Shown one piece after another: positions 2,788 to 54,245 of a stretch of 64,000 bases of DNA; position 1 is the first letter of the stretch; every line of letters begins with the position of its first letter. The translations under genes were made by a program, and so were the position numbers. Source of the DNA: Myxococcota bacterium (lineage in GTDB: Bacteria > Myxococcota_A > UBA796 > CAJQPC01); assembly GCA_036012755.1 (NCBI GenBank), contig DASCPX010000179.1:78566-142565 (forward strand). The letters are read 5' to 3'. Below the pieces are notes generated by a model. It saw only the letters and a list, made by a program, of their open reading frames with translations, did no database searches and was not told the origin of the DNA.

Positions 2788-3413
2788 CGAGCTTGTGGCT
2801 GCTGTGGTCCTGCGGAGGCGAGCCCGAAGAGGTGGTGTCCGGCCTGGTGGCGCCTGGCTGTTCGGCCTACCAGGCAGACCCCGACGCCCTGGCCTACTGC
2901 AACTACCTGGACACGATGGGCGCCTCCGACCTGGCGGTGGCCGAGCGACAGTGCAGCGCCGCCGGGGTGTGGGAACAGAGGTGCAGATCCGCCTGGATCT
3001 CGGGACACGCGGAGCGGGTGGACCGGGACGCGGCGCTGGCCTTCTGTTCCGACGAGTCCTGCCGCTTCGACGTGATCGACCGCCACCTCGACCCCGACAT
3101 CCACGGCCAGATCGCCCTCTGCACCGAGCACACCCCCACCTACAGGCTCGCCTGCATCGACCACGCCCTCATCGCCTGGTCCCAGAGCGCTCCCTCGCAG
3201 GAGGCGATGGCGGAGCTCGCGGCCCTGCCGGACATGGACCCCCGCCGGGTCGGAATGGCGCTCGGCGAGGTGGTGCTGTGCGTCGAGGGCCGGGAGTGCA
3301 CGGGCGACGGCGGCGTGCTGGCCGGATGCGAGGAGGTCGTTCGCCGAGACGACCGCGGGATCTGTGAGGGCGCGATCCCGAACGCCCCGGGACTCAGTCC
3401 GGGCGGACACTGA
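2784..3413 (+). CDS. Cys-rich lipoprotein-like protein, unknown function
   Basis: ATG at 2784 gives MTSLWLLWSCGG. I count 13 Cys. Translationally coupled to the upstream small gene. Confidence 0.55.
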   Translation: MTSLWLLWSCGGEPEEVVSGLVAPGCSAYQADPDALAYCNYLDTMGASDLAVAERQCSAAGVWEQRCRSAWISGHAERVDRDAALAFCSDESCRFDVIDRHLDPDIHGQIALCTEHTPTYRLACIDHALIAWSQSAPSQEAMAELAALPDMDPRRVGMALGEVVLCVEGRECTGDGGVLAGCEEVVRRDDRGICEGAIPNAPGLSPGGH

Positions 3414-3422
3414 GCCGGTCTC

Positions 3423-4988
3423 TCAGTTCCTCGGCCGCAGGCGCGCCCAGCTCAACAAGCTGCCGGCGGGTTCCAACCCGCGAGCGGCCTCCTCTGCGAA
3501 GAGCTCCTCGCAGGCCTGCACTTCTCGGGTGACCTGGGACAGCTGCTCACCCCCCTCGAAGAATGCCCTGTGCCACTGGTCCTCGGCCTGGAACAGCATT
3601 CGTCCCTCTGCGTGGGGTGAGAGGGCGCTGGGCAAGGTGCCGGCGACCAGCAGCCAGCACACGGCGGCGATGGCGAGGAGGCGGAGTGGCGCCGCCCAGG
3701 GTGGGAGGTAGCGAGTAGCGAGTCCTGGGCGCAGGCCGTCCAACAACCGCGCTCCGGCGGCGATGCCGACACCGACCAACACGGCGATGGCGATGGTGCC
3801 CGTGAGGACGAAGCGGGGGTGGGCCTCGACCGTGTCCCGGGCGCCCAGGAAGGAGGCGGCGAAGGGTGCCAGGCACAACAGGGCCGCCAGGCGGCGACGG
3901 CGACGGAGCAGCAGGAGTGTAGCGACCGCCGTGCCACCCAGGCCCAGGTGGAACCAGGGCTCCAGACGGGTCGGGCTGAGCGTGGGCACCGGCAACGGAC
4001 CCCAGGCCTCTGGCGGGTGGTCGGGCAGCGGGTAGTCCCGCTGAGCCCACAAGAACGCGAGGGTCTCGGGGATCTCCCAAGGTGGAGAGCGGCCCCAGAC
4101 GTACTGGTGCTCGGTCACCCAGGGCGGCTCGTAGATCTCGTCGCGATGGCCCAGGTCCCAGTAGAGGCGACGGGCATCGACCTCGCCCTCGAGGGGGTAG
4201 GACCCGGGTGGATAGGCGAGCCGGCCGAGGGCGAAGGAGGCCACGAGCGCGGCGACCACGATGCCTAGACGAGCAGGCCAGAGGCGCCTCGGTGCCCAGA
4301 GCGCCGCGACGATGACGAGAGCCGTGGCGGTGAGCCCCCAGACGAGCCCGCGAGTGTCCGCGAGGAAGGCCGCACCCGCACCCGCAGCCCCGCAGATCAG
4401 CGCCGCGGTGGTCGACCAGCGCAGGGCGATCGCGGCCCCGGCGGCGCTGAGCACCAACAGGGCGATCATGAGGGGGTAGAAGTTGACCGTGTGCGTCATC
4501 ACGACAAAGGACGGCAAGCACCCGGTCAAGACGGCGGCCGCCACCCCCGCTGCCGGAGAAGCCAGGGAGCGGGCCCATCCGTAGACTCCGGCCACGGCCA
4601 GCGAGCACCCGATCCAGGCTCCCACCGTGAGCCCGTCCAGGGTGCCGAACCAGCCCGCCAACAGCGAGGGTATGGCGCCCACGGTCAGGGACCTGGTCAT
4701 GTGCCAGCCGGCTTGATCCAGCCCATCCAACGGGGAGCCGAAGGCGGCCACCGAGGCGCAGTAGTTGGTGAAGTCGTTGCTGGTGTAGGGACCGCCCATG
4801 GTGTGCAGCGGCCACAACCAGAAGGCGGTGGCCAAGGTGACCAGGATCCCCAGACAAAGCGCGAGCGCCACCTCGCGACCGGGTCGCACCTGGTCCGGGC
4901 TGCTCTGGGCCGGGGTGAGCAACCACAGCAACACCGGGACCGCGAGCAGGGTCAGGGGGTGGAACAGGACATCGGCCAGCACGCGCAC
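3423..4988 (-). CDS. Polytopic membrane protein, function unknown
   Basis: ORF 3423..5174. The first ~60 codons overlap the divergent gene at 5005 and look non-native. In-frame GTGs at 4988 and 4982 precede the first helix (VRVLADVLFHPLTLLAVPVLLWLL). More than 10 hydrophobic segments. Confidence 0.55.
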   Translation of the reverse strand: MRVLADVLFHPLTLLAVPVLLWLLTPAQSSPDQVRPGREVALALCLGILVTLATAFWLWPLHTMGGPYTSNDFTNYCASVAAFGSPLDGLDQAGWHMTRSLTVGAIPSLLAGWFGTLDGLTVGAWIGCSLAVAGVYGWARSLASPAAGVAAAVLTGCLPSFVVMTHTVNFYPLMIALLVLSAAGAAIALRWSTTAALICGAAGAGAAFLADTRGLVWGLTATALVIVAALWAPRRLWPARLGIVVAALVASFALGRLAYPPGSYPLEGEVDARRLYWDLGHRDEIYEPPWVTEHQYVWGRSPPWEIPETLAFLWAQRDYPLPDHPPEAWGPLPVPTLSPTRLEPWFHLGLGGTAVATLLLLRRRRRLAALLCLAPFAASFLGARDTVEAHPRFVLTGTIAIAVLVGVGIAAGARLLDGLRPGLATRYLPPWAAPLRLLAIAAVCWLLVAGTLPSALSPHAEGRMLFQAEDQWHRAFFEGGEQLSQVTREVQACEELFAEEAARGLEPAGSLLSWARLRPRN

Positions 4989-6553: not shown

Positions 6554-7138
6554 TCAGTCGTTGCGGGCGAGGTCCATCTGCAAGGTGAGCTCGCAGGCGC
6601 TGCCGCCGATGATGGTCTCGACCACGCCGCAGTCCGCGCCCTCGCAGTTGAGCACGACATCGGCGCTCATGGTCATGGTCGCCTCGTCCACGAACTCGCC
6701 GTAGACCAGCGCATCGAAGACGATGACGGCGGCCAGGCCGTAGTCCTGTGGCGTGTAGTCCTCGTCGCTGCGGCTGTCGCAGTCGTAGGCCCAGCCATCG
6801 AGATCGCACTGGTCGTCCGGGGGCTCGTCACCGGCCATGGTGAACTTGCCTCCGCCGTCGTCGTGCAGCGTGACCTCGTTGCCGACCTCGCCGTGGCTGA
6901 CCCAGTCCGCTGCAGCGCAGGGGTCGTGGGTGAAGGTCCGCGCGGTGACCGTCCAGGTCTCGCCGTCGGTCAAGGGGTAGTCATCCCCACCGTCGTCATC
7001 GTCGTTGCCGTCGTCATCGTCGTTGCCGTCGTCGTCGTCGTTGCCATCGTCCTCGTCGAGGGGGTCGGCGGTCGGGCGGTCTTCGTCGTCTGGAGCCAGG
7101 GTCTCTGTGGAACAGGCCAGGAATGCAAACAGGATCAT
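6554..7138 (-). CDS. Acidic-repeat lipoprotein, unknown function
   Basis: ATG at 7138 gives MILFAFLACSTE. Contains (GNDDDD)x3. The C-terminal domain has 6 Cys. Confidence 0.6.
   Translation of the reverse strand: MILFAFLACSTETLAPDDEDRPTADPLDEDDGNDDDDGNDDDDGNDDDDGGDDYPLTDGETWTVTARTFTHDPCAAADWVSHGEVGNEVTLHDDGGGKFTMAGDEPPDDQCDLDGWAYDCDSRSDEDYTPQDYGLAAVIVFDALVYGEFVDEATMTMSADVVLNCEGADCGVVETIIGGSACELTLQMDLARND
6989..7042 (-). repeat. 3 x 18-bp in-frame tandem repeat encoding GNDDDD
   Basis: Plus-strand copies at 6989-7006, 7007-7024 and 7025-7042 (gccgtcgtcatcgtcgtt-like). Confidence 0.9.
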
Positions 7139-7155
7139 GCCTCTCCGGACGGTGC

Positions 7156-7193
7156 GTATACGCGCTGTATACCTAAGTAGACAGTGTGTATAC
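7156..7193. promoter_or_regulatory. Three GTATAC palindromes in an AT-rich divergent intergenic region (candidate operator/promoter)
   Basis: GTATAC at 7156-7161, 7167-7172 and 7188-7193 (spacings 11 and 21 bp), between the divergent starts at 7138(-) and 7221(+). Confidence 0.4.
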
Positions 7194-7220
7194 GTCAAGA
7201 AGCTGTCGTAGCCTGGGATC

Positions 7221-7857
7221 ATGCTGCTGCTGCTTGCATGCAACGGTCGCCTCGACACGGGCGCGTGCGAGGCGAGCTTCTCCTCTGGGGGGGGCATTCA
7301 CCTGCCCGATGGAGGGCTGGGGCGACCGGGACTACTACATCGTGCTGCCCGACGGCTACGCGGGCGGCGACGCGATCCCGCTGTTGGTCGACTTCCACGG
7401 GGGCGGCGGCAGCAAGATCTCCGAGGCCGCCTCGAGCTGTCCCGAGGGCGACCTGGACGACCCGAAGTGCCTGCATGCCTTCGCCAGGGAGAAGGGCTTC
7501 GCGCTGGTCTACCCAAACGGCACCGGCGCGAGCGGCTGGAAGCAGAACCTGCGGAGCTGGAACGCCGGAGGGGGGAACCCGGACGACGAGTTCCGCTGTG
7601 TCTCGACCCCGGCGGGCGAGGACGGCGTCGACGACGAGCGCTACCTCCGAGAGCTGCTCGACGACGTCGACGACGACGGCACGACCACGACCCGCCTGAG
7701 CTACCCGGACTGTCCCCTCGAACACCTCCGGGTGGACGGGGGCGGCCACGTCTGGCCCCAGGGCCACCAGTACCTGAGCGCAAAACGGGTAGGGCCTGCC
7801 TGGCAGGACTGGGGCAACGAAGTCATCTGGGACTTCCTCTCCAGCCACAGCCGTTAG
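7221..7857 (+). pseudogene. Lipoprotein esterase of the LpqC/PHB-depolymerase-like family, frameshifted at a G8 tract; nucleophile region appears to be missing
   Basis: MLLLLACNGRLDTGACEASFSSGG (frame 3) continues as AFTCPMEGWGDRDYYIVLPDGY...PLLVDFHGGGGS...GGGHVWPQG (frame 1). Removing one G from G8 (7287-7294) fuses the two frames. Confidence 0.6.
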
Positions 7858-19815: not shown

Positions 19816-21435
19816 GTGGCGGTCCTCCTTCGACTCGAGCAACGCGGCGACGACCTCGTCTTTGGCGTCGGAGAAGTGGAGGCAGCGCTGTCGGAGGGAA
19901 CCGCCAGGGAGCTGCTCGTCCTCGCCGAGAGCGACGAGGTCGACGTCACGGAGGACGACCTCGACCGCACCGACACCGGCGAAGACGAGGGCCTGCGCCT
20001 CGCCGACCTGCTGCGGGAGTACGCGCCGTGGGCGGAGCTGGAGGAGCTCGATGGCCAGACGCCGCTGATCGTGGTCTGCCCGGCGGCCCTCGAGAGGCTC
20101 GCCTGGGAGCGGCTGTTCTTCGATCAGGAGGCCCCAGCAGAGGTCCAGCGACGCGTCGTCATCGGGCGCCTGACCCCGGGCACGGCGGAGCCGACCAGAC
20201 CCGAAGGCGCCTTCCACGTGCTGCACTGGTGCCCGACGCCGAACGACCAGGGCTGCCGGCGCATCACGGGCCGGCTCGGCGAGCTCGCCCCCAGCCTGGA
20301 GATCACCCTCGACGAGTTCGAGAACCACATCCCCAGCGAGCCCTTCGTCCTGCACATCGTGATGAGCGGTGGGAGCTACGAGGCCCTGGAGCCCCACGTC
20401 GAGCGAGGCACGGAGGGACGCCTGGGACTCGCCCTGTCCCGCTGCGAGGCCGTGGTGCTCGCCATCATCGAGAGCCCGGTCGGTCACGCCGTAGAGCTCG
20501 GCGAGCGGCTGATCGAGCTCGGTGCGCCCTCGGTCATCGCCCCCTGGGGCGAGGTCGACGTGGAGGCCCTGCAGCGCTTCGGCGACGGCTTCTACCAGGC
20601 CCTGGCGACCCACGCGACCCTGGCCGAGGCGGTCGCAGAGGGACGCCGAAAGGTGCGCGCCTGGGGCCAACGCCACCCAGAGGCCCGCTGGTCGAAGTGG
20701 TCCTGGCGCGTCGCGACCCTCGAGGCCGCCGACAGCTCTCCTCTGCGGCTGGAGACCTGGCGCCCCGAGGGCTGGCCTCGCCCGGCCTCTGATGCCACGG
20801 TGCTGCTGGAGCGCGCGCGCGAGCTGTCGATGGCGCAGGGTGGTGGCTACCTGGGGGTCGAGCACGTCGTTGCAGCGCTGAAACAGGTCGAGGGTGGCGG
20901 CAAGACCACAGCCCAGATCCGGGCGACGTTGCCGCGTCTGGACCAGTTCGAGGCGACGCTCGCTGCGCTCAGCCCCCAGCCCGGGGAAGAGCAGCTGACG
21001 CTGAGCCCTCGGCTGCGAGACTGGCCCAGCGGGCTGAACGATGGCTTCCACCTCGACGACCTCTGTGCCGTCCTGGCGATGGACCTCGCGGCGACCCTCG
21101 CGGGGCGACCGGGCACCGACCAGCCGGCCGAGGTGCTGACCGTGCTCGGCGGCCCAGAGGATGGGCGGGCGCTGAAGATGCAGGTCGGGGACACCCTCGG
21201 TCGCGCCTCGGACAGCGACGGTCCGACCCACGCGCTCTACGCCGGCACGCGGCTCACCGACCGCAAGCTCTCCCGCCAGCACCTCAGCTGGCAGGGGCCG
21301 GGCAAGGTGGTGCTGAAGAGGGCAGCACGACGCTTCCGGGGCGGAGAGATCGCCAGGGTCGGCCCCGGCGAGGTCGAGCTCAGCGCCGGCGACCTCCTGG
21401 TGCTCACCCACGCGACCCGGGTCATCGCCGGCTGA
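19816..21435 (+). CDS. CHAT-like (catalytic Cys absent) / Clp_N-like / FHA fusion protein
   Basis: FVLHIVMSGG and VVLAIIESPVG are CHAT strands without the Cys. LLERARELSMAQGGGYLGVEHVVAALKQ is Clp_N-like. The C-terminus is FHA-like (LGRASDSD...LSRQHLSW...GDLLVL). Confidence 0.65.
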   Translation: MAVLLRLEQRGDDLVFGVGEVEAALSEGTARELLVLAESDEVDVTEDDLDRTDTGEDEGLRLADLLREYAPWAELEELDGQTPLIVVCPAALERLAWERLFFDQEAPAEVQRRVVIGRLTPGTAEPTRPEGAFHVLHWCPTPNDQGCRRITGRLGELAPSLEITLDEFENHIPSEPFVLHIVMSGGSYEALEPHVERGTEGRLGLALSRCEAVVLAIIESPVGHAVELGERLIELGAPSVIAPWGEVDVEALQRFGDGFYQALATHATLAEAVAEGRRKVRAWGQRHPEARWSKWSWRVATLEAADSSPLRLETWRPEGWPRPASDATVLLERARELSMAQGGGYLGVEHVVAALKQVEGGGKTTAQIRATLPRLDQFEATLAALSPQPGEEQLTLSPRLRDWPSGLNDGFHLDDLCAVLAMDLAATLAGRPGTDQPAEVLTVLGGPEDGRALKMQVGDTLGRASDSDGPTHALYAGTRLTDRKLSRQHLSWQGPGKVVLKRAARRFRGGEIARVGPGEVELSAGDLLVLTHATRVIAG

Positions 21436-22250
21436 TGCTCGTCCTCGGCCGGCTGTACCGGCGGGGTGTGCCCGGGGTGGGGTGGCTGCTCGCGGAGGGC
21501 TTGTGGCTGGCGCTGTTCGGTGCTGCCTTCGCGGTCTGGCTCTTTCCGAGCGAGGCCAGCCTGGTGGCGGTCTTCCTGGTCGCCATCGCATCGGTGGACT
21601 CGCTGGAGCGACTGCTGGTGGAGAACCGCCGCCGCATCTACGAAGACGGCGAGCGCCCTCTCCGCGCCAACCTGCACATCTGCGCGCTCCTGCTGGCGCT
21701 GTTCGCGGGCACCACGGTGGGCTTCTCGTTGCTCGGCCTCTTCCTTCCCCTGGACCTCGTGGAGCTCCTGTTCGCCAAGCAGCTGGAGGGCTACGGCGCC
21801 AACTTCCCCGGGCTCCAGTTCGGGGGCGCTGCCCCGCTGTTGAAGGCCAACCTCTTCGTCCTCTTCTTCTTCTTCGTCATCGCGCTCTTCTTCCGGCAGG
21901 GCGGAGTGATGCTGGCGGTCGCGTGGAACGCCGGAGTCTGGGGAGCGACCTGCGGCTGGCTGGCCCGGACCTGGGATGGGGGTCCCCCGCTCGTCGAGGC
22001 CTGGTTCCGAGTCGCCGGGACCTGCCTCCCACACCTGGCGCTGGAGGCTGCGGCCTTCGTGCTCGCCGGGCTCGCCGGCGTGTTCCTGTCGAAGGGGCTC
22101 CTCCGTCACGCCCTCGACAGCGAGCCCGTGCGCTCCATCGCGACCTCCGCAGCCGCACTGCTCGCCGTCGCGGTCGGATTGGTGGTCCTGGGAGCCTTCT
22201 GGGAAGCCCTGGTGGCTCCGCATCTCCACCTCTGGCTGATCTCCGGGTGA
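21435..22250 (+). CDS. SpoIIM/DUF95-like integral membrane protein
   Basis: About 6 TM helices. Motifs AWNAGVWGA and LPHLALEAAAFVLAGLAG resemble the stage II sporulation protein M family. The start shares 1 nt with the upstream stop. Confidence 0.65.
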   Translation: MLVLGRLYRRGVPGVGWLLAEGLWLALFGAAFAVWLFPSEASLVAVFLVAIASVDSLERLLVENRRRIYEDGERPLRANLHICALLLALFAGTTVGFSLLGLFLPLDLVELLFAKQLEGYGANFPGLQFGGAAPLLKANLFVLFFFFVIALFFRQGGVMLAVAWNAGVWGATCGWLARTWDGGPPLVEAWFRVAGTCLPHLALEAAAFVLAGLAGVFLSKGLLRHALDSEPVRSIATSAAALLAVAVGLVVLGAFWEALVAPHLHLWLISG

Positions 22251-22512
22251 ATCAGCGCTCCGACGCGGCGAGCAGCGAGGGCACAGGCCTGCAGACCGGG
22301 ACCCTGAGGCGCACCCTCGCGAGACTGCACGCGGCGTAGTGTCGCGGCCAGTGGGCGACCTGCAGAGGTCGCGTCAGGAACACGGCCCCCCAGCCCGGCG
22401 GGCGGACGGGCGCACAACGACGTCCGTGGAAGGCAGCGCTGGCGCCCTTCTTCGAACACCAACCCCTGGTGCCCCTACTGGTCAGGCCCTCTGCAGCGGG
22501 CGACAGGATGTT

Positions 22513-22659
22513 GCGTATCGGCCCCGGTTCTCCGGAACCCTCGGAGATGTGCAACAAAACGTCGCGTATCGGCCCCGGTTCTCCGGAACCCTCGGAGATG
22601 TGCAACAAAACGTCGCGTATCGGCCCCGGTTCTCCGGAACCCTCGGAGATGTGCAACAA
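22513..22659. repeat. Tandem repeat A: about 2.9 x 51 bp, each unit carrying the palindrome GGTTC-TCCG-GAACC
   Basis: Units start at 22513, 22564 and 22615 (gcgtatcggccccggttctccggaaccctcggagatgtgcaacaaaacgtc). Copies 1 and 2 are identical. Confidence 0.9.
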
Positions 22660-22730
22660 GCTCGCCCAGTTCCGGGCTCGCCCAGTTCCGGGCTCGCCCA
22701 GTTCCGGGCTCGCCCAGTTCCGGGCTCGCC
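22660..22730. repeat. Tandem repeat B: about 4.4 x 16 bp (GCTCGCCCAGTTCCGG)
   Basis: Perfect units at 22660, 22676, 22692 and 22708, plus a partial unit at 22724-22730. The period is not a multiple of 3. Confidence 0.9.
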
Positions 22731-22789
22731 GCGTCCTGAGACCGACGAGCGAGGCGTGCTTGCACGCCCCCGAGGAGGCGCCGGAGGTC

Positions 22790-23050
22790 GTGCCCGAAGC
22801 CGTCGCCCCGCGGTCCGCCGGTGTTGACGTGCGTTTCACCGGTGCAGACAGGGTGATCCTCGTCCGCGAGCCCGGAGGTGAGCGGCTGGCGCTGCGGGCA
22901 GATGGAGCCCGAGAGGTGCGCCCCGGCCACTACAAGATCGAAGCTCGCTTCGGCGAGCACCAGTTCCCGGTTGGACGGCTGACCGTCATGGCTGGTGTGG
23001 ACGTGACGCTGTCCTGCGACGTGGACTTCCTGACCTGCAAACCGCGCTGA
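22790..23050 (+). CDS. Small beta-sandwich (PEGA-like) protein; start uncertain
   Basis: The C-terminal 85 codons of ORF 22469..23050 look coding (VDVRFTGADRVILVREPGG...HYKIEARFGEH...VTLSCD). GAGGAGG lies 11 nt before the GTG at 22790. Confidence 0.35.
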   Translation: MPEAVAPRSAGVDVRFTGADRVILVREPGGERLALRADGAREVRPGHYKIEARFGEHQFPVGRLTVMAGVDVTLSCDVDFLTCKPR

Positions 23051-23088: not shown

Positions 23089-23784
23089 ATGCTGCTGTCG
23101 CTGTTGTTGTCTTGCTCGGGACAGCCCGAGCCCACCAGTGTCCCCGTCGCGAAGGACGGCGAGCCCAGGATCGAGAAGCCGGCGACCCCGGCCGCGGAGC
23201 CCGAGGTCCCGACGGCCTCGGTGCCCACCCCGGCAGACTGGAACGCGACCGCCCCGGCCAACTTCGACGCGGTCTTCGAGACCAGCAAGGGCAGCTTCAC
23301 CGTGAGCGTGGACCGCAGCTGGTCACCCACCGGCGCCGACCGCTTCTACAACCTCGTCGACAACGGGTACTACGACGACATCGCCTTCTTTCGGAACATC
23401 GATGGCTTCATGGTGCAGTTCGGGATCCACGGCGACCCGGCCTTCAACACCGTCTGGAAGGACGCCTCGATCCTGGACGACGCGGTCACGAAGTCGAACC
23501 GGCGCACCTTCGTGAGCTTCGCGACCTCGGGCAAGAACAGCCGCACGACGCAGATCTTCATCAACTTCGGCGACAACTCGAGCCTCGACGGAATGGGCTT
23601 CTCGCCCTTCGGCCAGATCACCGACGGCATGGAGGTCGTGGACTCGCTCTACAACGGCTACGGCGAGGGGAGCCCCCGCGGCCGCGGACCAGACCAGGGC
23701 AAGCTCCAGAAGATGGGCAACGCCTACCTGAAGACCGAGTTCCCGAAGCTCGACTACGTCACCCAGGCGTCGATCAGGGACTAG
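23089..23784 (+). CDS. Cyclophilin-type peptidyl-prolyl cis-trans isomerase, lipoprotein
   Basis: N-terminus MLLSLLLSC. Further motifs FFRNIDGFMVQFG, TTQIFINF and FGQITDGMEVVD. Confidence 0.85.
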   Translation: MLLSLLLSCSGQPEPTSVPVAKDGEPRIEKPATPAAEPEVPTASVPTPADWNATAPANFDAVFETSKGSFTVSVDRSWSPTGADRFYNLVDNGYYDDIAFFRNIDGFMVQFGIHGDPAFNTVWKDASILDDAVTKSNRRTFVSFATSGKNSRTTQIFINFGDNSSLDGMGFSPFGQITDGMEVVDSLYNGYGEGSPRGRGPDQGKLQKMGNAYLKTEFPKLDYVTQASIRD

Positions 23785-27824: not shown

Positions 27825-28402
27825 CTACACCAAGGCCTTCTTGCTCGCGTAGTCATCGAGCGCCGCACGCAGCGGGCCCTCCGCTGGCCACTGTTCGGGT
27901 CCGGCCGCCATCAGCGCGGCCACAGCCTGGTCGATCCACTCGGACGAGGCGCTCTCGAGCTGCCTCGCCGCGTTCTTTCGCTCCTGTATGACCTGGCCCG
28001 GGCCGCCCGCGGGCATGGCCTCCAGACCCAGCTTCGTGGCGAGCCCCTGGCCCGCCGCATCTCGGGCTTGATGGCGTTGAACCCGGTCTCGCAGAACAGG
28101 GCCCAGTCATCCTCGACCTCCAGCACCACGTCGCCGAGGTGCCAGCGGGAGACCTCGCACTCGGGCTCCGGCCAGTCCACGGCGGCACTGTCGTGGGAGG
28201 CACTGTCGTGGGAGGCACTGTCGTGGGAGGCACTGTCGTGGGAGGCACTGTCGTGGGAGGCACTGTCGTGGGAGGCACTGTCGTACGAGTCGGAGTCGCC
28301 ACCAGAGTCCCCGATCTCCACGCCGGTGTCGCACTCCGCGCCGGGGTCGCCGGCGATCTGGCGCGGATCGCCGCAGGCGAGGAGGACGACTGGGATGAGC
28401 AT
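27825..28402 (-). pseudogene. SHDSA-repeat lipoprotein, apparently frameshifted
   Basis: MLIPVVLLAC...(SHDSA)x7...FCETGFNAIKPE is followed by Arg-rich junk in the same frame. A coherent continuation (AAGQGLATKLGLEAMPAGGPGQVIQERK...) lies in another frame. The junction is at about 28050-28062. Confidence 0.5.
28181..28285 (-). repeat. 7 x 15-bp in-frame tandem repeat (ggaggcactgtcgtg) encoding SHDSA
   Basis: Seven consecutive 15-bp units run from 28181 to 28285. The first and last units each carry one substitution. Confidence 0.9.
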
Positions 28403-51731: not shown

Positions 51732-52260
51732 CCAACATCCCGGCGCGGAGCTCGTCGGCCTTGCCGCGCCCCACCAGCCGCGAGACCAGCGCCATCGCGA
51801 AGTCCATCGCTGTCCCTGGTCCCCTCGCGGTGATGACGTGGCCGTCCTCGACCACGGCCTCCTCGCGCCGGTTGGCGCCGGTGAGCTCCTCCTCGAAGCC
51901 CGGGTAGCAGGTCGCGTCCCGACCCTCGAGGACGCCCGCGGCGCCCAGCACGATCGGGGCAGCACAGATGGCCGCGATGACGCGCCCGGCCGCTGACTGG
52001 GCCTGCACGAGCTCCCTGACCTTCTCGCTGTCTCGCAGGGTCGTCGCACCGGGTAGCCCCCCGGGCAGGATCACCGCGTCCCACAGCCCGTCGCCGCCGA
52101 GCACGTGGTCCGCCTGGACGACGACTCCATGAGCCCCCTGGACCCAGGGCGCGTGGACGCCCACGGCGCTGACCTCGATGCCGGCACGTCTCAACACGTC
52201 GATCACGGTGATGGCCTCGATCTCCTCGAAGCCGTCTGCGAGGAGCACGCACGCGCGCAT
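51721..52260 (-). CDS. DJ-1/PfpI (YajL/ThiJ) family protein
   Basis: Nucleophile elbow AICAAP, with LLADGFEEIEA and ILPGG. Confidence 0.85.
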   Translation of the reverse strand: MRACVLLADGFEEIEAITVIDVLRRAGIEVSAVGVHAPWVQGAHGVVVQADHVLGGDGLWDAVILPGGLPGATTLRDSEKVRELVQAQSAAGRVIAAICAAPIVLGAAGVLEGRDATCYPGFEEELTGANRREEAVVEDGHVITARGPGTAMDFAMALVSRLVGRGKADELRAGMLVSG

Positions 52261-52322
52261 TGGACCTCCGGTCCCCGCAGAACCCTACCGCGATACGGCC
52301 TCGCGCGGGCTACCCTCGTCCA

Positions 52323-54245
52323 ATGCTCCTCCTGGTCCTCGCCTGCACCAAGTCCAACATCAGCGACAGTGGGCAGATCGCAGAGGACCTCGACCGCGAC
52401 GACGACGGCTGGCAGAACGAGGACGACTGCCAGCCAGACGACAGCACGATCCACCCGGCCGCCGAGGAGACCTGCGACGGTCTGGACAACGACTGCGACG
52501 AGGTGATCGACGAGGACGTACAGAACACCTTCTACGCGGACACCGACGACGACGGCTACGGCGACCCCGACGCCCCGCTCGAGGCCTGCGGACGCCCGGC
52601 CGGCTACGCGCTCACCGGCAACGACTGCGACGACTCCAGCGCGGACATCTACCCGGGCGCTGCCGAGATCTGCAACGACCTCGACGACGACTGCGACGAG
52701 GAGATCGACGAGGACGTGAAGACGACCTGGTGGGCCGACGTGGACACCGACGGCTTCGGCGATCCGGAGACCGAGACCGAGGCCTGCGAGGCCCCCGACG
52801 GCCACGTGTCGATCGCCGACGACTGTGACGACACCGACGCCACCTCCTTCCCGGGCGGGACAGAGGTCTGCGACGAGGCCGACAACGACTGCGACGGCAC
52901 CGTCGACGAGGACGTGACGACCACCTACTGGGCGGACGCGGACACCGACGGCTACGGCGACAGCGACCTGCCGACCGAAGCATGCAGCCTGCCCACCGGC
53001 TACGCGGAGATCGACGGGGACTGTGACGACGCGGCGGAAGACGTCTACCCGGGCGCCACCGAGACCAAGGCAGACGGCATCGACCAGGACTGTGACGACG
53101 GTGACCTCTGCTACCGCGACGGTGACAAGGACGGCTACGGCGGCAGCTCGGACGCGGCGAGCACAGACCTCGACTGCGCGGACAAGGGCGAAGCCGAGAG
53201 CGACACAGACTGCGATGACGGCGACGACTCGGTGTACCCGGGCGCCGACGAGTACTGCAACGACACGGATGACGACTGCGACACGGACATCGACGAGGAC
53301 GCCGTCGACGCCGACACCTGGTACCTCGACGACGACAAGGACGGCTTCGGAGACGCCACCAGCACCACAGAGGACTGCGACGAGCCCTCCGGCTACACCG
53401 ACGACGACACAGACTGTGACGACACGGACGGCGACATCTACCCGGGGGCCGACGAGTACTGCAACGACGAGGACGACGACTGCGACGGCGACATAGACAA
53501 CGACGCCCTGGACGTCGACACCTGGTACCTCGACGACGACGGAGACGGCTACGGGGACGCCACCACCACGACAGAGGACTGCGACGAGCCCTCCGGCTAC
53601 ACCGACGACGACACAGACTGTGACGACACGGACTACGACATCAATCCCGGGGCCTCCGAGACCTGCAACGGAGAGGACGACGACTGCGACACAGACATCG
53701 ACGAGGGGGTGCTCGGGACCGGCACGGACTGCCCGGCAGAGGACTGCAGCGAGGTGCTGTCCGACAACGCCTCCGCCACAGACGGCGACTACGAGCTCGA
53801 CGCCGGCACCTACACCTGTGACATGACCACCGACGGAGGCGGCTGGACGCTGGTGGGCGACGACGTCTCGGTCTACGGCACGGGCTACGACACGACCTAC
53901 TACAACAGCGAAGGCTTCACCTGGATCGAGGTGCTCTTCGAGTACGACTCTGGCAGCGCGCACGCCCACTGCACCTACCCATCGTCGCTCACAGGCTGCA
54001 ACAACCTTGGCTTCCAGTTCGCCTCCGAGTCCTGGGGCGTCCCGCTGAACTGGGGAAGCAGCATCTGTGGCATGTCGACCACGGACTACACGGGCAACAC
54101 GAACTACATCGGCGGCTACGACTTCGTCATCGACCGCAGCAGCTCGACCGACACGGTCCGCCTCGGCACGCTGGAGGGCATCAGCAGCTGCACGACAGGT
54201 GACAACCCCGGCACGGCCTACACCGACATCTGGGTGCGCCAGTGA
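52323..54245 (+). CDS. Lipoprotein with 7 Cys-rich 'putative metal-binding motif' repeats and a C-terminal fibrinogen-related domain
   Basis: N-terminus MLLLVLAC. I count 7 copies of DCDD.D..[IV]YPGA.E.C[ND]..D[DN]DCD...DE. The C-terminus has YTCDMTTDGGGWTLVG. Confidence 0.75.
   Translation: MLLLVLACTKSNISDSGQIAEDLDRDDDGWQNEDDCQPDDSTIHPAAEETCDGLDNDCDEVIDEDVQNTFYADTDDDGYGDPDAPLEACGRPAGYALTGNDCDDSSADIYPGAAEICNDLDDDCDEEIDEDVKTTWWADVDTDGFGDPETETEACEAPDGHVSIADDCDDTDATSFPGGTEVCDEADNDCDGTVDEDVTTTYWADADTDGYGDSDLPTEACSLPTGYAEIDGDCDDAAEDVYPGATETKADGIDQDCDDGDLCYRDGDKDGYGGSSDAASTDLDCADKGEAESDTDCDDGDDSVYPGADEYCNDTDDDCDTDIDEDAVDADTWYLDDDKDGFGDATSTTEDCDEPSGYTDDDTDCDDTDGDIYPGADEYCNDEDDDCDGDIDNDALDVDTWYLDDDGDGYGDATTTTEDCDEPSGYTDDDTDCDDTDYDINPGASETCNGEDDDCDTDIDEGVLGTGTDCPAEDCSEVLSDNASATDGDYELDAGTYTCDMTTDGGGWTLVGDDVSVYGTGYDTTYYNSEGFTWIEVLFEYDSGSAHAHCTYPSSLTGCNNLGFQFASESWGVPLNWGSSICGMSTTDYTGNTNYIGGYDFVIDRSSSTDTVRLGTLEGISSCTTGDNPGTAYTDIWVRQ

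What the first reader, a model, noticed from the sequence alone, without database searches (positions are those of the whole stretch)
22513..22730. Composite spacer-less tandem-repeat array (3 x 51 bp then about 4.4 x 16 bp) built on CCGGAAC/GTTCCGG half-sites
A 540-bp region with no convincing gene lies between the SpoIIM-like gene and a small downstream ORF. It contains two abutting arrays.

Array A has units at 22513, 22564 and 22615, each 51 bp long: gcgtatcggccccggttctccggaaccctcggagatgtgcaacaaaacgtc. Each unit contains the palindrome GGTTC-TCCG-GAACC, and the units are spaced about five helical turns apart.

Array B has perfect 16-bp units GCTCGCCCAGTTCCGG at 22660, 22676, 22692 and 22708, plus a partial unit. 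The B unit carries GTTCCGG, the reverse complement of the CCGGAAC half-site in A.

The 16-bp period is not divisible by three. In the best frame, GC3 of unit A is only 12/17. Both points argue against ordinary coding sequence, although ORFs on both strands (22469..23050+, 22252..22839-) read through.

Possible roles are an iteron or operator array for a DNA-binding protein, a structured RNA, or a hypervariable VNTR.
Basis: seen in the sequence. Interest (0 to 1): 0.6.

Follow-up and report, generated by a model that had tools for sequence, protein, structure and literature searches.

The report
Variable tandem repeats in gene-deletion scar
Two perfect, back-to-back tandem repeats sit in about 515 bp of non-coding DNA that replaced most of a protein kinase gene in an uncultured high-GC bacterium, and their copy numbers differ between natural samples, so this is an ordinary fast-mutating minisatellite rather than a protein-binding array.

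Summary
There are 2.9 perfect copies of a 51-bp unit (22513-22659), directly followed by 4.4 perfect copies of a 16-bp unit (22660-22730).

The arrays lie in a non-coding segment of about 515 bp (22251-22764). In three close relatives a 532-aa Ser/Thr kinase gene sits at this position. The "small downstream ORF" is the leftover C-terminal domain of that kinase (75% identity, E=1e-34).

About 14 metagenome assemblies of the same population are 99.9-100% identical in the flanks. They carry 2 or 3 A units and 1.4, 2.4, 3.4 or 4.4 B units, or they break inside the array. This is a VNTR.

Unit A is a roughly 50-nt imperfect hairpin. It also occurs once, with a second shared block, in an unrelated intergenic spacer (L024). 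It therefore belongs to a low-copy modular intergenic element, comparable to pneumococcal BOX or mycobacterial MIRU elements. B looks like a local microhomology-seeded duplication.

Nothing supports an iteron or operator role. There is no replication gene, DnaA box or AT-rich region. The arrays are absent from relatives, and the shared 7-mer is near chance (P about 0.06). Codon usage argues against coding.

Interest is low. This is a new member of a known kind.

The parts
21435..22250 (+). SpoIIM-like membrane protein gene. It is the upstream neighbour and the last conserved gene before the novel segment.
   Evidence: Pfam SpoIIM E=9.6e-6, just under the curated cut-off. GC3 is 0.90. Orthologues of 81-84% identity are found in relatives, each followed by a kinase gene.
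22251..22764 (.). Non-coding segment of about 514 bp. It occupies the place of the 5' part (about 1.4 kb) of a Ser/Thr kinase gene and contains everything listed below up to the B array.
   Evidence: No DNA or protein similarity to the relatives' kinase. All six frames have a negative codon-usage score. No Pfam hit for the read-through ORFs. No homologues of the 193-aa ORF outside this population. The right boundary at 22765 is set by the alternative haplotype L032.
22262..22273 (.). Left arm of a 12-bp perfect inverted repeat (GACGCGGCGAGC).
   Evidence: the repeat finder pair I6, 100% complementary to 22724-22735. The two arms pair in the RNA minimum-free-energy fold. Significance is modest in GC-rich DNA.
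22282..22333 (+). Block 1, a motif of about 50 nt (..TGCAGA-CCGGGACCCTGnnGCGCACCCTCG-cgAGAcTGCAC). It is shared with the L024 spacer, where it is duplicated.
   Evidence: blastn 92% over 25 nt and 95% over 20 nt. nhmmer E=2.3e-10 for the window copy. One compensatory pair among the 3 copies, which is anecdotal.
22495..22512 (+). Leader of the A array (..GCGACAGGATGTT). It is homologous to the sequence preceding the single A unit in L024 and supplies the 5' half of the lower stem of the first hairpin.
   Evidence: 63-nt alignment at 95% identity that starts 13 nt before the array. Fold.
22513..22659 (+). Array A: 2.9 perfect copies of a 51-bp unit. Each unit is an imperfect hairpin (TGTTGCGTATC..GGTTC-TCCG-GAACC..GAGATGTGCAACA).
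   Evidence: TRF 100% identity. Hairpin -21.3 kcal/mol, z=-2.6. Either 2 or 3 copies in different assemblies.
22660..22730 (+). Array B: 4.4 perfect copies of the 16-bp unit GCTCGCCCAGTTCCGG. The unit is bounded by the 7-bp direct repeat GCTCGCC and is self-complementary between neighbouring units.
   Evidence: TRF 100% identity. The minus-strand fold has z=-5.8. Copy numbers of 1.4, 2.4, 3.4 and 4.4 occur in different assemblies.
22724..22735 (.). Right arm of the 12-bp inverted repeat (GCTCGCCGCGTC). It overlaps the last partial B unit.
22765..23050 (+). Remnant of the Ser/Thr kinase gene. It consists of a short Pro/Glu linker remnant plus the 72-aa C-terminal domain (22829-23047) and the stop codon. 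Gene callers report it as a 96-aa ORF (TTG 22760) or a 117-aa ORF.
   Evidence: tblastn of the L011 kinase: 75% identity over 72 aa, E=1e-34. Exhaustive HMMER: the best non-self hit is the 532-aa kinase, with the domain at residues 444-531. dN/dS is 0.15 and GC3 is 0.78. Codon score is 0.33.
23089..23784 (+). Cyclophilin-type peptidyl-prolyl isomerase gene with a canonical AAGGAG Shine-Dalgarno sequence. It is the downstream neighbour and probably the last gene of the same operon.
   Evidence: Pfam Pro_isomerase E=1.8e-21. It sits 40 bp after the kinase in the sister species.

Best explanation
The two arrays are young, fast-mutating tandem duplications (a compound minisatellite, or VNTR). They lie in a non-coding segment of about 515 bp that replaced the 5' 1.4 kb of a Ser/Thr kinase gene between the SpoIIM-like gene and the cyclophilin gene.

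The segment is related to a modular intergenic element seen at one other locus. That locus shares block 1 and a 50-nt hairpin unit.

In this population the hairpin unit (A) has been amplified to 2-3 head-to-tail copies. A 16-bp stretch bounded by the 7-bp direct repeat GCTCGCC (B) has been amplified to 1-4 copies. The inferred mechanism is replication slippage or unequal recombination. It would be favoured by the hairpin in A and by the self-complementarity between neighbouring B units.

The arrays are most likely transcribed as an untranslated spacer of the trpF-CHAT-SpoIIM-...-cyclophilin operon. They have no sequence-specific function of their own. Any effect would be a side effect on the stability or read-through of that transcript.

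Shown here: the arrays, their perfection, their non-coding character, the gene truncation, the copy-number differences among assemblies, and the second locus. Inferred: the slippage mechanism, co-transcription and neutrality.
For: Arrays and copy number:
- Both arrays are 100% perfect.
- The assemblies match the window at 99.9-100% over 5-15 kb. Length differences fall at the tandem arrays, apart from one insert of about 113 bp next to an N run in scaffold L006.
- A has 2 or 3 copies. B has 1.4, 2.4, 3.4 or 4.4 copies. Several contigs and scaffolds break or carry N gaps inside the array.
- A single-k collapse model cannot reproduce the combinations seen in L001 and L007.

Gene truncation:
- The relatives L011-L014, L015/16 and L017 have an intact kinase at this position.
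- The remnant is 75% identical to the kinase C-terminus, E=1e-34.

Non-coding character:
- The codon score of the repeat region is -0.12, against 0.48-0.96 for real genes.
- There are no homologues and no Pfam hit.
- All three residue classes of B copy number modulo 3 are observed, so no reading frame is maintained.

Origin of the units:
- The A unit plus its leader is 95% identical over 63 nt to a single copy in an unrelated spacer between convergent genes. Block 1 and the motif GGTGAATCAsCGC are shared collinearly with that spacer.
- A forms a hairpin, and the B array is self-complementary.
- The 7-bp direct repeat bounding B can be read directly from the sequence.

A second perfect array in the window (15 bp, 28184-28284) is also length-variable among the same assemblies. 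Tandem-array instability is therefore a general property of this population.
Against: - Copy numbers come from short-read metagenome assemblies, not from reads. Some values (for example L005: B 3.4 and the 15-bp array 3.7) are exactly what a k=55 collapse would give.
- The high conservation of the A unit between two loci (95%, while orthologous genes of sister species are about 73% identical at the DNA level) could mean that the hairpin is under selection and not inert.
- The three substitutions between the two A copies all avoid paired positions. This is weak evidence, P about 0.08, by my own count on the fold.
- The remnant ORF is still intact with dN/dS 0.15. The region may therefore matter for expression of a still-functional small protein.
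- Transcription was not tested.
Confidence: 0.7

Rival explanations
1. Functional RNA-level element. The A hairpins (and block 1) are cis-acting structures in the operon transcript, comparable to BIME, BOX or MIRU elements. They would tune mRNA stability, Rho-dependent polarity or processing, and so the expression of the remnant ORF and the cyclophilin. Copy number would act as a rheostat.
For: - Hairpin of -21.3 kcal/mol, z=-2.6, and the same fold in the L024 copy.
- 95% conservation of the unit between two unrelated loci, with substitutions only at unpaired positions.
- One compensatory pair in block 1.
- Location between co-directional genes that are 40 bp apart in the sister species.
- BOX modules are known to affect the expression of neighbouring genes (PMC3049150).
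Against: - Only two loci and three or four sequence variants are known, so there is no statistical covariation.
- The whole-region fold is no better than shuffles (z=-0.28).
- No Rfam family matches.
- No U-tract terminator is present.
- The hairpins in copies 2 and 3 lose part of the lower stem, because the duplication boundaries do not respect the hairpin (sequence).
- The arrays are absent in relatives.
Confidence: 0.12
2. Phase-variable (contingency) gene. Translation starts at an ATG in or before array A (22508 or the ATG inside each unit). The 16-bp B unit, which is not a multiple of 3, switches the reading frame into the kinase C-terminal domain on or off as its copy number changes.
For: - ORF 22469..23050 is open through both arrays in the window.
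- It is in frame with the remnant domain only when B has 1.4 or 4.4 copies.
- Gene callers extend the ORF to 117 aa in exactly those assemblies and to 96 aa in the others.
- The remnant has dN/dS 0.15.
Against: - The codon-usage score of the repeat part is -0.12, about 3.7 sd below real 120-codon pieces.
- The GGAG or AGGA motifs abut the ATGs with zero spacing, unlike the genuine Shine-Dalgarno sequence of the cyclophilin (sequence).
- The predicted N-terminus has no signal peptide or membrane segment, whereas in the kinase the domain lies beyond the membrane segment.
- The A unit is clearly non-coding at its other locus, where it lies between convergent genes.
- There are no protein homologues of the repeat part.
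Confidence: 0.06
3. Operator or iteron array. The units are repeated binding sites (CCGGAAC/GTTCCGG half-sites) for a DNA-binding protein that controls replication or transcription.
For: Regular spacing and a small palindrome in each A unit. A 7-mer is shared in inverted orientation between A and B.
Against: - The shared 7-mer is expected in 6% of composition-matched shuffles.
- No DnaA boxes anywhere in the window.
- Lowest GC is 64%.
- No replication, partition or regulator gene lies adjacent.
- No similarity to plasmids or phages.
- The site number varies freely between samples, and the whole segment is missing in relatives.
- Perfect identity of the units indicates recent duplication, not maintained sites.
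Confidence: 0.04
4. Assembly artefact. The arrays, or the differences in copy number, are produced by the assemblers.
For: Contigs end or carry N gaps in the arrays in L003 and L006-L009 (= L027, L028) and in L029-L030. Some copy numbers coincide with what a k-mer collapse would give.
Against: - The same junctions (leader-A, A-A, A'-B, B-B, B-flank) are recovered independently in more than 10 assemblies from different studies and assemblers.
- Arrays of 96 bp or less, and all B arrays (71 bp or less), are shorter than typical reads.
- The combinations in L001 and L007 are incompatible with a single-k collapse.
Confidence: 0.03

Closest known systems
Pneumococcal BOX elements (boxA-boxB(n)-boxC)
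   Same: Both are modular intergenic elements built from short conserved blocks. In both, one internal module of about 45-50 bp is tandemly repeated with high internal identity and variable copy number between strains. Both are predicted to form stem-loops when transcribed, and both can create spurious ORFs on both strands (PMC3049150, PMC1315331). In the present case, block 1 is duplicated in L024 and the A module is triplicated in the window.
   Different: There is no sequence relationship. BOX elements occur in more than 100 copies per genome, whereas only two loci are known here. The host is high-GC. A second, unrelated 16-bp array abuts the first. Mobility and terminal repeats are unproven.
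Mycobacterial interspersed repetitive units (MIRU-VNTR)
   Same: MIRU units are 40-100 bp, found singly or in tandem at scattered intergenic sites of a high-GC genome. Most lie between genes of polycistronic operons, and their copy number is polymorphic between isolates (PMC2734929, PMC3635867). The 51-bp A unit sits between co-directional genes and varies between 2 and 3 copies.
   Different: MIRUs occupy 41 loci in M. tuberculosis H37Rv, against two known loci here. From my own knowledge (Supply et al. 1997, not re-read here), MIRUs carry small ORFs that overlap the flanking genes' stop and start codons. That arrangement is not seen here. There is no sequence similarity, and the phylum is different.
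REP/BIME extragenic palindromes
   Same: GC-rich imperfect palindrome located after a stop codon, sometimes in tandem clusters. Such elements can act on mRNA stability or attenuation (PMC3184786; PMC3049150 background section).
   Different: REPs are 20-40 nt and occur in hundreds of copies. Here the unit is 51 nt with an interrupted stem, and no other copy exists in 64 kb, in 185,579 GTDB species genomes or in IMG/VR.
Simple-sequence contingency loci (phase variation by slipped-strand mispairing)
   Same: A perfect tandem tract whose unit length (16) is not a multiple of three, lying upstream of or in an ORF. Copy number varies in the population.
   Different: Classical tracts have 1-7-bp units inside demonstrably translated genes or promoters. 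Here the tract lies in sequence with non-coding codon usage, upstream of a gene remnant.
Plasmid or phage iterons
   Same: Directly repeated units of 16-22 bp at regular spacing.
   Different: No Rep gene, no AT-rich region and no DnaA boxes. The context is a chromosomal operon. Copy number is unconstrained and the arrays are absent in relatives.

Membership tests
VNTR / minisatellite | Head-to-tail repeats with a unit of about 10-100 bp | tested here: met
   TRF reports periods of 51 and 16, both at 100% identity.
VNTR / minisatellite | Copy number differs between otherwise near-identical genomes | tested here: met
   A has 2 or 3 copies and B has 1.4-4.4 copies in assemblies that are 99.9-100% identical in the flanks. 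The caveat is that this rests on assemblies, not reads. A single-k collapse is excluded for L001 and L007.
Dispersed modular intergenic repeat (BOX-like / MIRU-like) | The same unit is present at several unlinked intergenic loci of a genome | tested here: inconclusive
   One further locus was found (L024) with three collinear shared blocks. Whether it belongs to the same genome is unknown. No other copy occurs in the window or in the relatives' loci.
Dispersed modular intergenic repeat (BOX-like / MIRU-like) | Individual modules occur singly or tandemly amplified at different loci | tested here: met
   A occurs once in L024 and 2-3 times here. Block 1 occurs twice in L024 and once here.
REP/BIME | High copy number (tens to hundreds per genome) | tested here: not met
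   No additional copy in 64 kb. No exact core match in GTDB genomes or IMG/VR. One match in the JGI metagenomes.
REP/BIME | Imperfect palindrome that forms a stem-loop | tested here: met
   Fold of -21.3 kcal/mol, z=-2.6.
MITE | Terminal inverted repeats | tested here: inconclusive
   A 12-bp perfect inverted repeat (22262-22273 / 22724-22735) brackets block 1, A and B. It is not recognisably shared with L024 on inspection of the sequence.
MITE | Target-site duplication | tested here: not met
   No direct repeat flanks the inverted-repeat arms (sequence).
Iteron / replication origin | Adjacent initiator gene, AT-rich unwinding region, DnaA boxes | tested here: not met
   The neighbours are the SpoIIM-like gene, the kinase remnant and the cyclophilin gene. 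There are 0 DnaA boxes. GC is at least 64%.
Operator array | Sites conserved at the orthologous promoter in relatives | tested here: not met
   The relatives carry a kinase gene at this position and no arrays.
CRISPR | Repeats separated by unique spacers, with cas genes nearby | tested here: not met
   The units abut with no spacers.
Phase-variable coding repeat | The repeat tract lies within a translated ORF | tested here: not met
   Codon-usage score of -0.12 per codon. No homologues. Translation itself cannot be tested with these tools.
Known RNA families (Rfam 15) | Covariance-model match at the gathering score | tested here: not met
   No hit at the gathering threshold. The best relaxed hit is chrB-a at 23 bits against a threshold of 43.9. 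Nothing was found in L024.
Hanks-type Ser/Thr kinase (the gene that used to be here) | Pkinase catalytic domain | tested here: not met
   Only the C-terminal 72 aa remain in the window. The full Pkinase domain is present in L011, L015 and L017.

The most novel reading that the evidence does not exclude
The segment of about 515 bp would be a copy of a previously undescribed family of modular, hairpin-bearing and possibly mobile intergenic elements in an uncultured marine high-GC bacterium. The family would be BOX- or MITE-like, bracketed by a 12-bp inverted repeat. Its insertion or recombination would have truncated the kinase gene. Its modules would expand and contract as VNTRs and so tune expression of the downstream cyclophilin and kinase-remnant genes.
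Probability: 0.15. Interest if true: 0.4.

Novelty: new member of a known kind. Interest (0 to 1): 0.2.

Why it matters
The finding has little wider importance. It gives a natural, population-level example of minisatellite hypervariability in an uncultured bacterium. Three perfect arrays within 6 kb differ in length, while point differences are 0.1% or less. Such loci break metagenome contigs and could serve as strain markers.

It also documents a recent gene truncation (loss of a Ser/Thr kinase) and hints at a low-copy modular intergenic element.

It does not open a long-standing question. The iteron or operator idea, which made the finding attractive, is not supported.

Tried and rejected
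- Homologue search with the 193-aa read-through ORF found only the same population.
- A GTDB genome scan with the neighbouring 530-aa protein found nothing, so the species and its close relatives are not among the species representatives.
- A GTDB scan and an IMG/VR scan with the 21-nt A core gave 0 hits.
- Plasmid and phage blastn searches with the 580-bp region gave no match.
- Rfam searches at gathering and relaxed thresholds found nothing credible.
- Promoter and terminator scans found no sigma-70-like promoter and no terminator in the region.
- No tRNA or tmRNA gene occurs in the window, so this is not an integration site of that kind.
- The more distant SpoIIM-like relatives (49-57% identity) have no synteny and were uninformative.
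- My last protein search went to a 604-aa ORF of L024 that turned out to be spurious (GC3 0.63). The real upstream gene there is the 160-aa ORF 3527..4009(-). As a result I could not collect more copies of the L024-type spacer.
- The idea that L024's 784-aa gene is the orthologue of the window's 784-aa gene was rejected. One is a molybdopterin dehydrogenase subunit and the other is PheT.
- Derivation of the B unit from the relatives' 12-bp periodic kinase linker (GCTCGTTGAGGTTCCGG against GCTCGCCCAGTTCCGG) was considered, but the match is too weak to claim.
- The remnant domain has no significant PDB sequence hit.
- Sample and accession identifiers were not found in the literature library, so the habitat and taxon remain unnamed.

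Full report
**1. The observation.**
The window is 69% GC, and real genes have GC3 of about 0.9-0.96. Tandem Repeats Finder reports two abutting perfect arrays. The first is 22513-22659, period 51, 2.9 copies. The second is 22660-22730, period 16, 4.4 copies. The A core occurs three times against zero in shuffles, and exact B units occur only in the array. The one correction is that the third A copy is 45 bp. The CCGGAAC/GTTCCGG 'half-site' shared by A and B is real. However, composition-matched shuffles share an inverted 7-mer in 6.4% of trials, so it carries little weight.

**2. What lies around the arrays.**
The upstream genes are trpF, a CHAT-domain gene and a SpoIIM-like gene (ending at 22250). 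The downstream gene is a cyclophilin (23089-23784). All are on the + strand. A look-up of orthologues of the SpoIIM-like protein gave three close relatives with 81-84% amino-acid identity. In all three a Hanks-type Ser/Thr kinase gene follows the SpoIIM-like gene. It is 532 aa in L011, where it is complete. In L011 the kinase gene ends 40 bp before the cyclophilin. The contigs of the other two relatives end inside the kinase gene, so their downstream gene is not seen.

In the window, only the last 72 codons of that kinase survive (22829-23047). The tblastn match is 75% identity, E=1e-34. An exhaustive HMMER search gave the same 532-aa kinase as the best non-self hit, with the domain at residues 444-531. 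The 'small downstream ORF' is therefore a gene remnant. It is still intact, with dN/dS 0.15 against the sister species, a somewhat lowered GC3 (0.78) and a weakly coding codon score (0.33).

The roughly 514 bp between the SpoIIM-like stop and position 22765 have no similarity to the relatives' kinase gene. They score as non-coding in all six frames, with the repeat part of the ORF at -0.12 per codon against 0.48-0.96 for real genes. They have no Pfam hit and no protein homologue outside this population.

A single 900-bp contig (L032) is 99.5% identical to the window from 22765 onwards but has a completely different left flank. That flank holds another gene and gives the remnant a proper ATG. 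If this contig is not chimeric, 22765 is a recombination breakpoint with at least two haplotypes.

**3. Population variation.**
Exact-protein look-ups with the cyclophilin and the SpoIIM-like protein returned about 14 distinct contigs of the same population, from several studies and assemblers. They match the window at 99.9-100% over 5-15 kb. The length differences fall at the A/B arrays and at a second perfect array (15 bp, 28184-28284), apart from one insert of about 113 bp next to an N run in scaffold L006.

Resolved alleles are as follows:

| Assembly | A copies | B copies |
|---|---|---|
| window | 3 | 4.4 |
| L002, L005, L026 | 3 | 3.4 |
| L004 | 3 | 2.4 |
| L001, L010 | 2 | 1.4 |

L007 also has B 2.4. 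L003 and L006 have N gaps in the array, and L007-L009, L029 and L030 end inside it.

Because these are assemblies, collapse of repeats is a concern. A simple single-k collapse model reproduces some values, such as L005. It cannot reproduce L001 (B 1.4 together with 2.7 copies of the 15-bp array) or L007 (B 2.4 together with 4.7 copies). All B arrays are shorter than a read. I conclude that at least the B variation is real, and that the locus behaves as a VNTR whose mutation rate far exceeds the point-substitution rate.

**4. Origin of the units.**
One scan of the JGI metagenomes with a 24-nt A core found one other contig, L024 (PVBE010620184.1, 147 kb, 68.8% GC). It is a different locus. The unit lies in the 286-bp spacer between a 160-aa gene and a convergent molybdopterin-dehydrogenase gene.

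The shared sequence is 63 nt at 95% identity. It comprises one A unit plus the 13 nt that precede the array in the window. Two further blocks are shared in the same order. The first is GGTGAATCAsCGC, directly at the upstream stop codon. The second is 'block 1', about 50 nt (window 22282-22333, nhmmer E=2e-10), which is itself duplicated (56-bp period) in L024.

Unit A folds into an interrupted hairpin. An 11-bp lower stem (TGTTGCGTATC/GAGATGTGCAACA) is followed by internal loops and a 5-bp apical stem (GGTTC/GAACC). The energy is -21.3 kcal/mol with z=-2.6, and the L024 copy adopts the same fold. The three substitutions between the two loci fall at unpaired positions.

No other copy of either block exists in the 64-kb window or in the relatives' loci. 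None is found in 185,579 GTDB species genomes or in IMG/VR.

B has no counterpart elsewhere. Its unit is bounded by the 7-bp direct repeat GCTCGCC (…CAACAA-GCTCGCC-CAGTTCCGG-GCTCGCC-GCGTCC…). This is the classical seed for a microhomology-mediated tandem duplication. Neighbouring units are mutually complementary (GCCCAG/CCGGGC), and the minus-strand array fold has z=-5.8.

A 12-bp perfect inverted repeat (22262-22273 / 22724-22735) brackets block 1, A and B. No target-site duplication is visible, so MITE status is open.

**5. Mechanism.**
The best-supported reading starts from a non-coding, modular, hairpin-bearing intergenic sequence that came to replace the 5' part of the kinase gene. Within it, two short stretches have recently undergone tandem amplification and contraction, by replication slippage or unequal recombination. 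The perfect identity of the copies indicates that this is recent, and secondary structure probably helps.

The neighbouring genes are co-directional, and the kinase-cyclophilin spacing is 40 bp in the sister species. The segment is therefore probably transcribed as an untranslated spacer of the operon. This is inferred, not shown.

Rivals:
- A regulatory role for the hairpins at the RNA level cannot be excluded (0.12).
- Frame switching by the 16-bp unit into the remnant domain is formally possible. The ORF is in frame only with 1.4 or 4.4 B units, and gene callers flip between 117-aa and 96-aa calls accordingly. Against it stand the codon usage, the lack of a usable ribosome-binding site, the lack of a signal or membrane segment, and the fact that the unit is intergenic at its other locus (0.06).
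- An operator or iteron role is not supported (0.04). There are no DnaA boxes, no AT-rich region and no initiator or regulator gene. The arrays are absent from relatives, and the site number is unconstrained.

**6. Comparison with known systems.**
The closest analogues are pneumococcal BOX elements and mycobacterial MIRU-VNTRs. BOX elements are built from modules, with a 45-bp boxB module tandemly repeated in variable number. They form stem-loops and give spurious ORFs on both strands (PMC3049150, PMC1315331). MIRUs are 40-100-bp units at scattered intergenic sites, mostly within operons, and are polymorphic in copy number (PMC2734929, PMC3635867).

The present case shares the architecture and the behaviour but not the sequence. 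It fails the high-copy criterion of REP or BOX families on the data available, since only two loci are known. It is best filed as a new member of a known kind: a compound minisatellite in a low-copy modular intergenic element.

**7. Verdict.**
Interest is low (0.2). The most novel reading still open is a new mobile modular element family that truncates genes and tunes operon expression. I give it about 15% probability and moderate interest if true.

Noticed in passing
window 28184-28284 (ORF from ATG 28402 on the minus strand): A third perfect array (15 bp x 6.7) is coding. It encodes (SHDSA)n in a lipoprotein-like ORF (MLIPVVLLAC...). Its copy number is 2.7, 3.7, 4.7 or 6.7 in different assemblies. 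The ORF turns Arg-rich after about 115 aa, as if frameshifted, and other gene callers report only a 63-aa piece.
   Followed up: partly
window 22765; locus L032 1-900: A 900-bp contig from another sample is 99.5% identical to the window from 22765 onward. Its left flank is unrelated (64% GC, another ORF), and it gives the kinase remnant a proper ATG and a 114-aa product. This is either an alternative haplotype with the same breakpoint or a chimeric contig.
   Followed up: partly
L011 8050-8260; L015 3879-5057: The linker of the relatives' Ser/Thr kinase is itself repeat-prone. L011 has a 12-bp periodic Glu-x-Pro-Val tract, and in L015 a (Pro-Asp)n run ends the contig.
   Followed up: no
L015 3306-3857 (also L016): In one relative a KptA-like RNA 2'-phosphotransferase gene (PF01885) is inserted between the SpoIIM-like gene and the kinase. 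The region downstream of the SpoIIM-like gene is therefore a hotspot of rearrangement in this lineage.
   Followed up: no
L024 about 3380-3526 (minus orientation): The spacer holding the single A unit also has GTGAATCG x 3 directly after the stop codon, and a 56-bp imperfect duplication of block 1. Other modules of the element are therefore amplified at that locus.
   Followed up: partly
L006 2296-2417, against window about 15616: One scaffold carries a low-GC insert of about 113 bp next to a run of 10 N inside the YkuD_2 gene. This is probably a scaffolding artefact.
   Followed up: no
window 52449-53706 (ORF 52260-54245 +): Coding repeats of 198-204 bp, 72-85% identical, rich in Asp and Cys, lie in a 661-aa protein with a C-terminal GGGWT_bact (fibrinogen-like) domain.
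   Followed up: no
window 6990-7058: An 18-bp x 3.8 repeat (94% identity) overlaps ORF 6554-7297(-). It is probably an acidic coding repeat.
   Followed up: no
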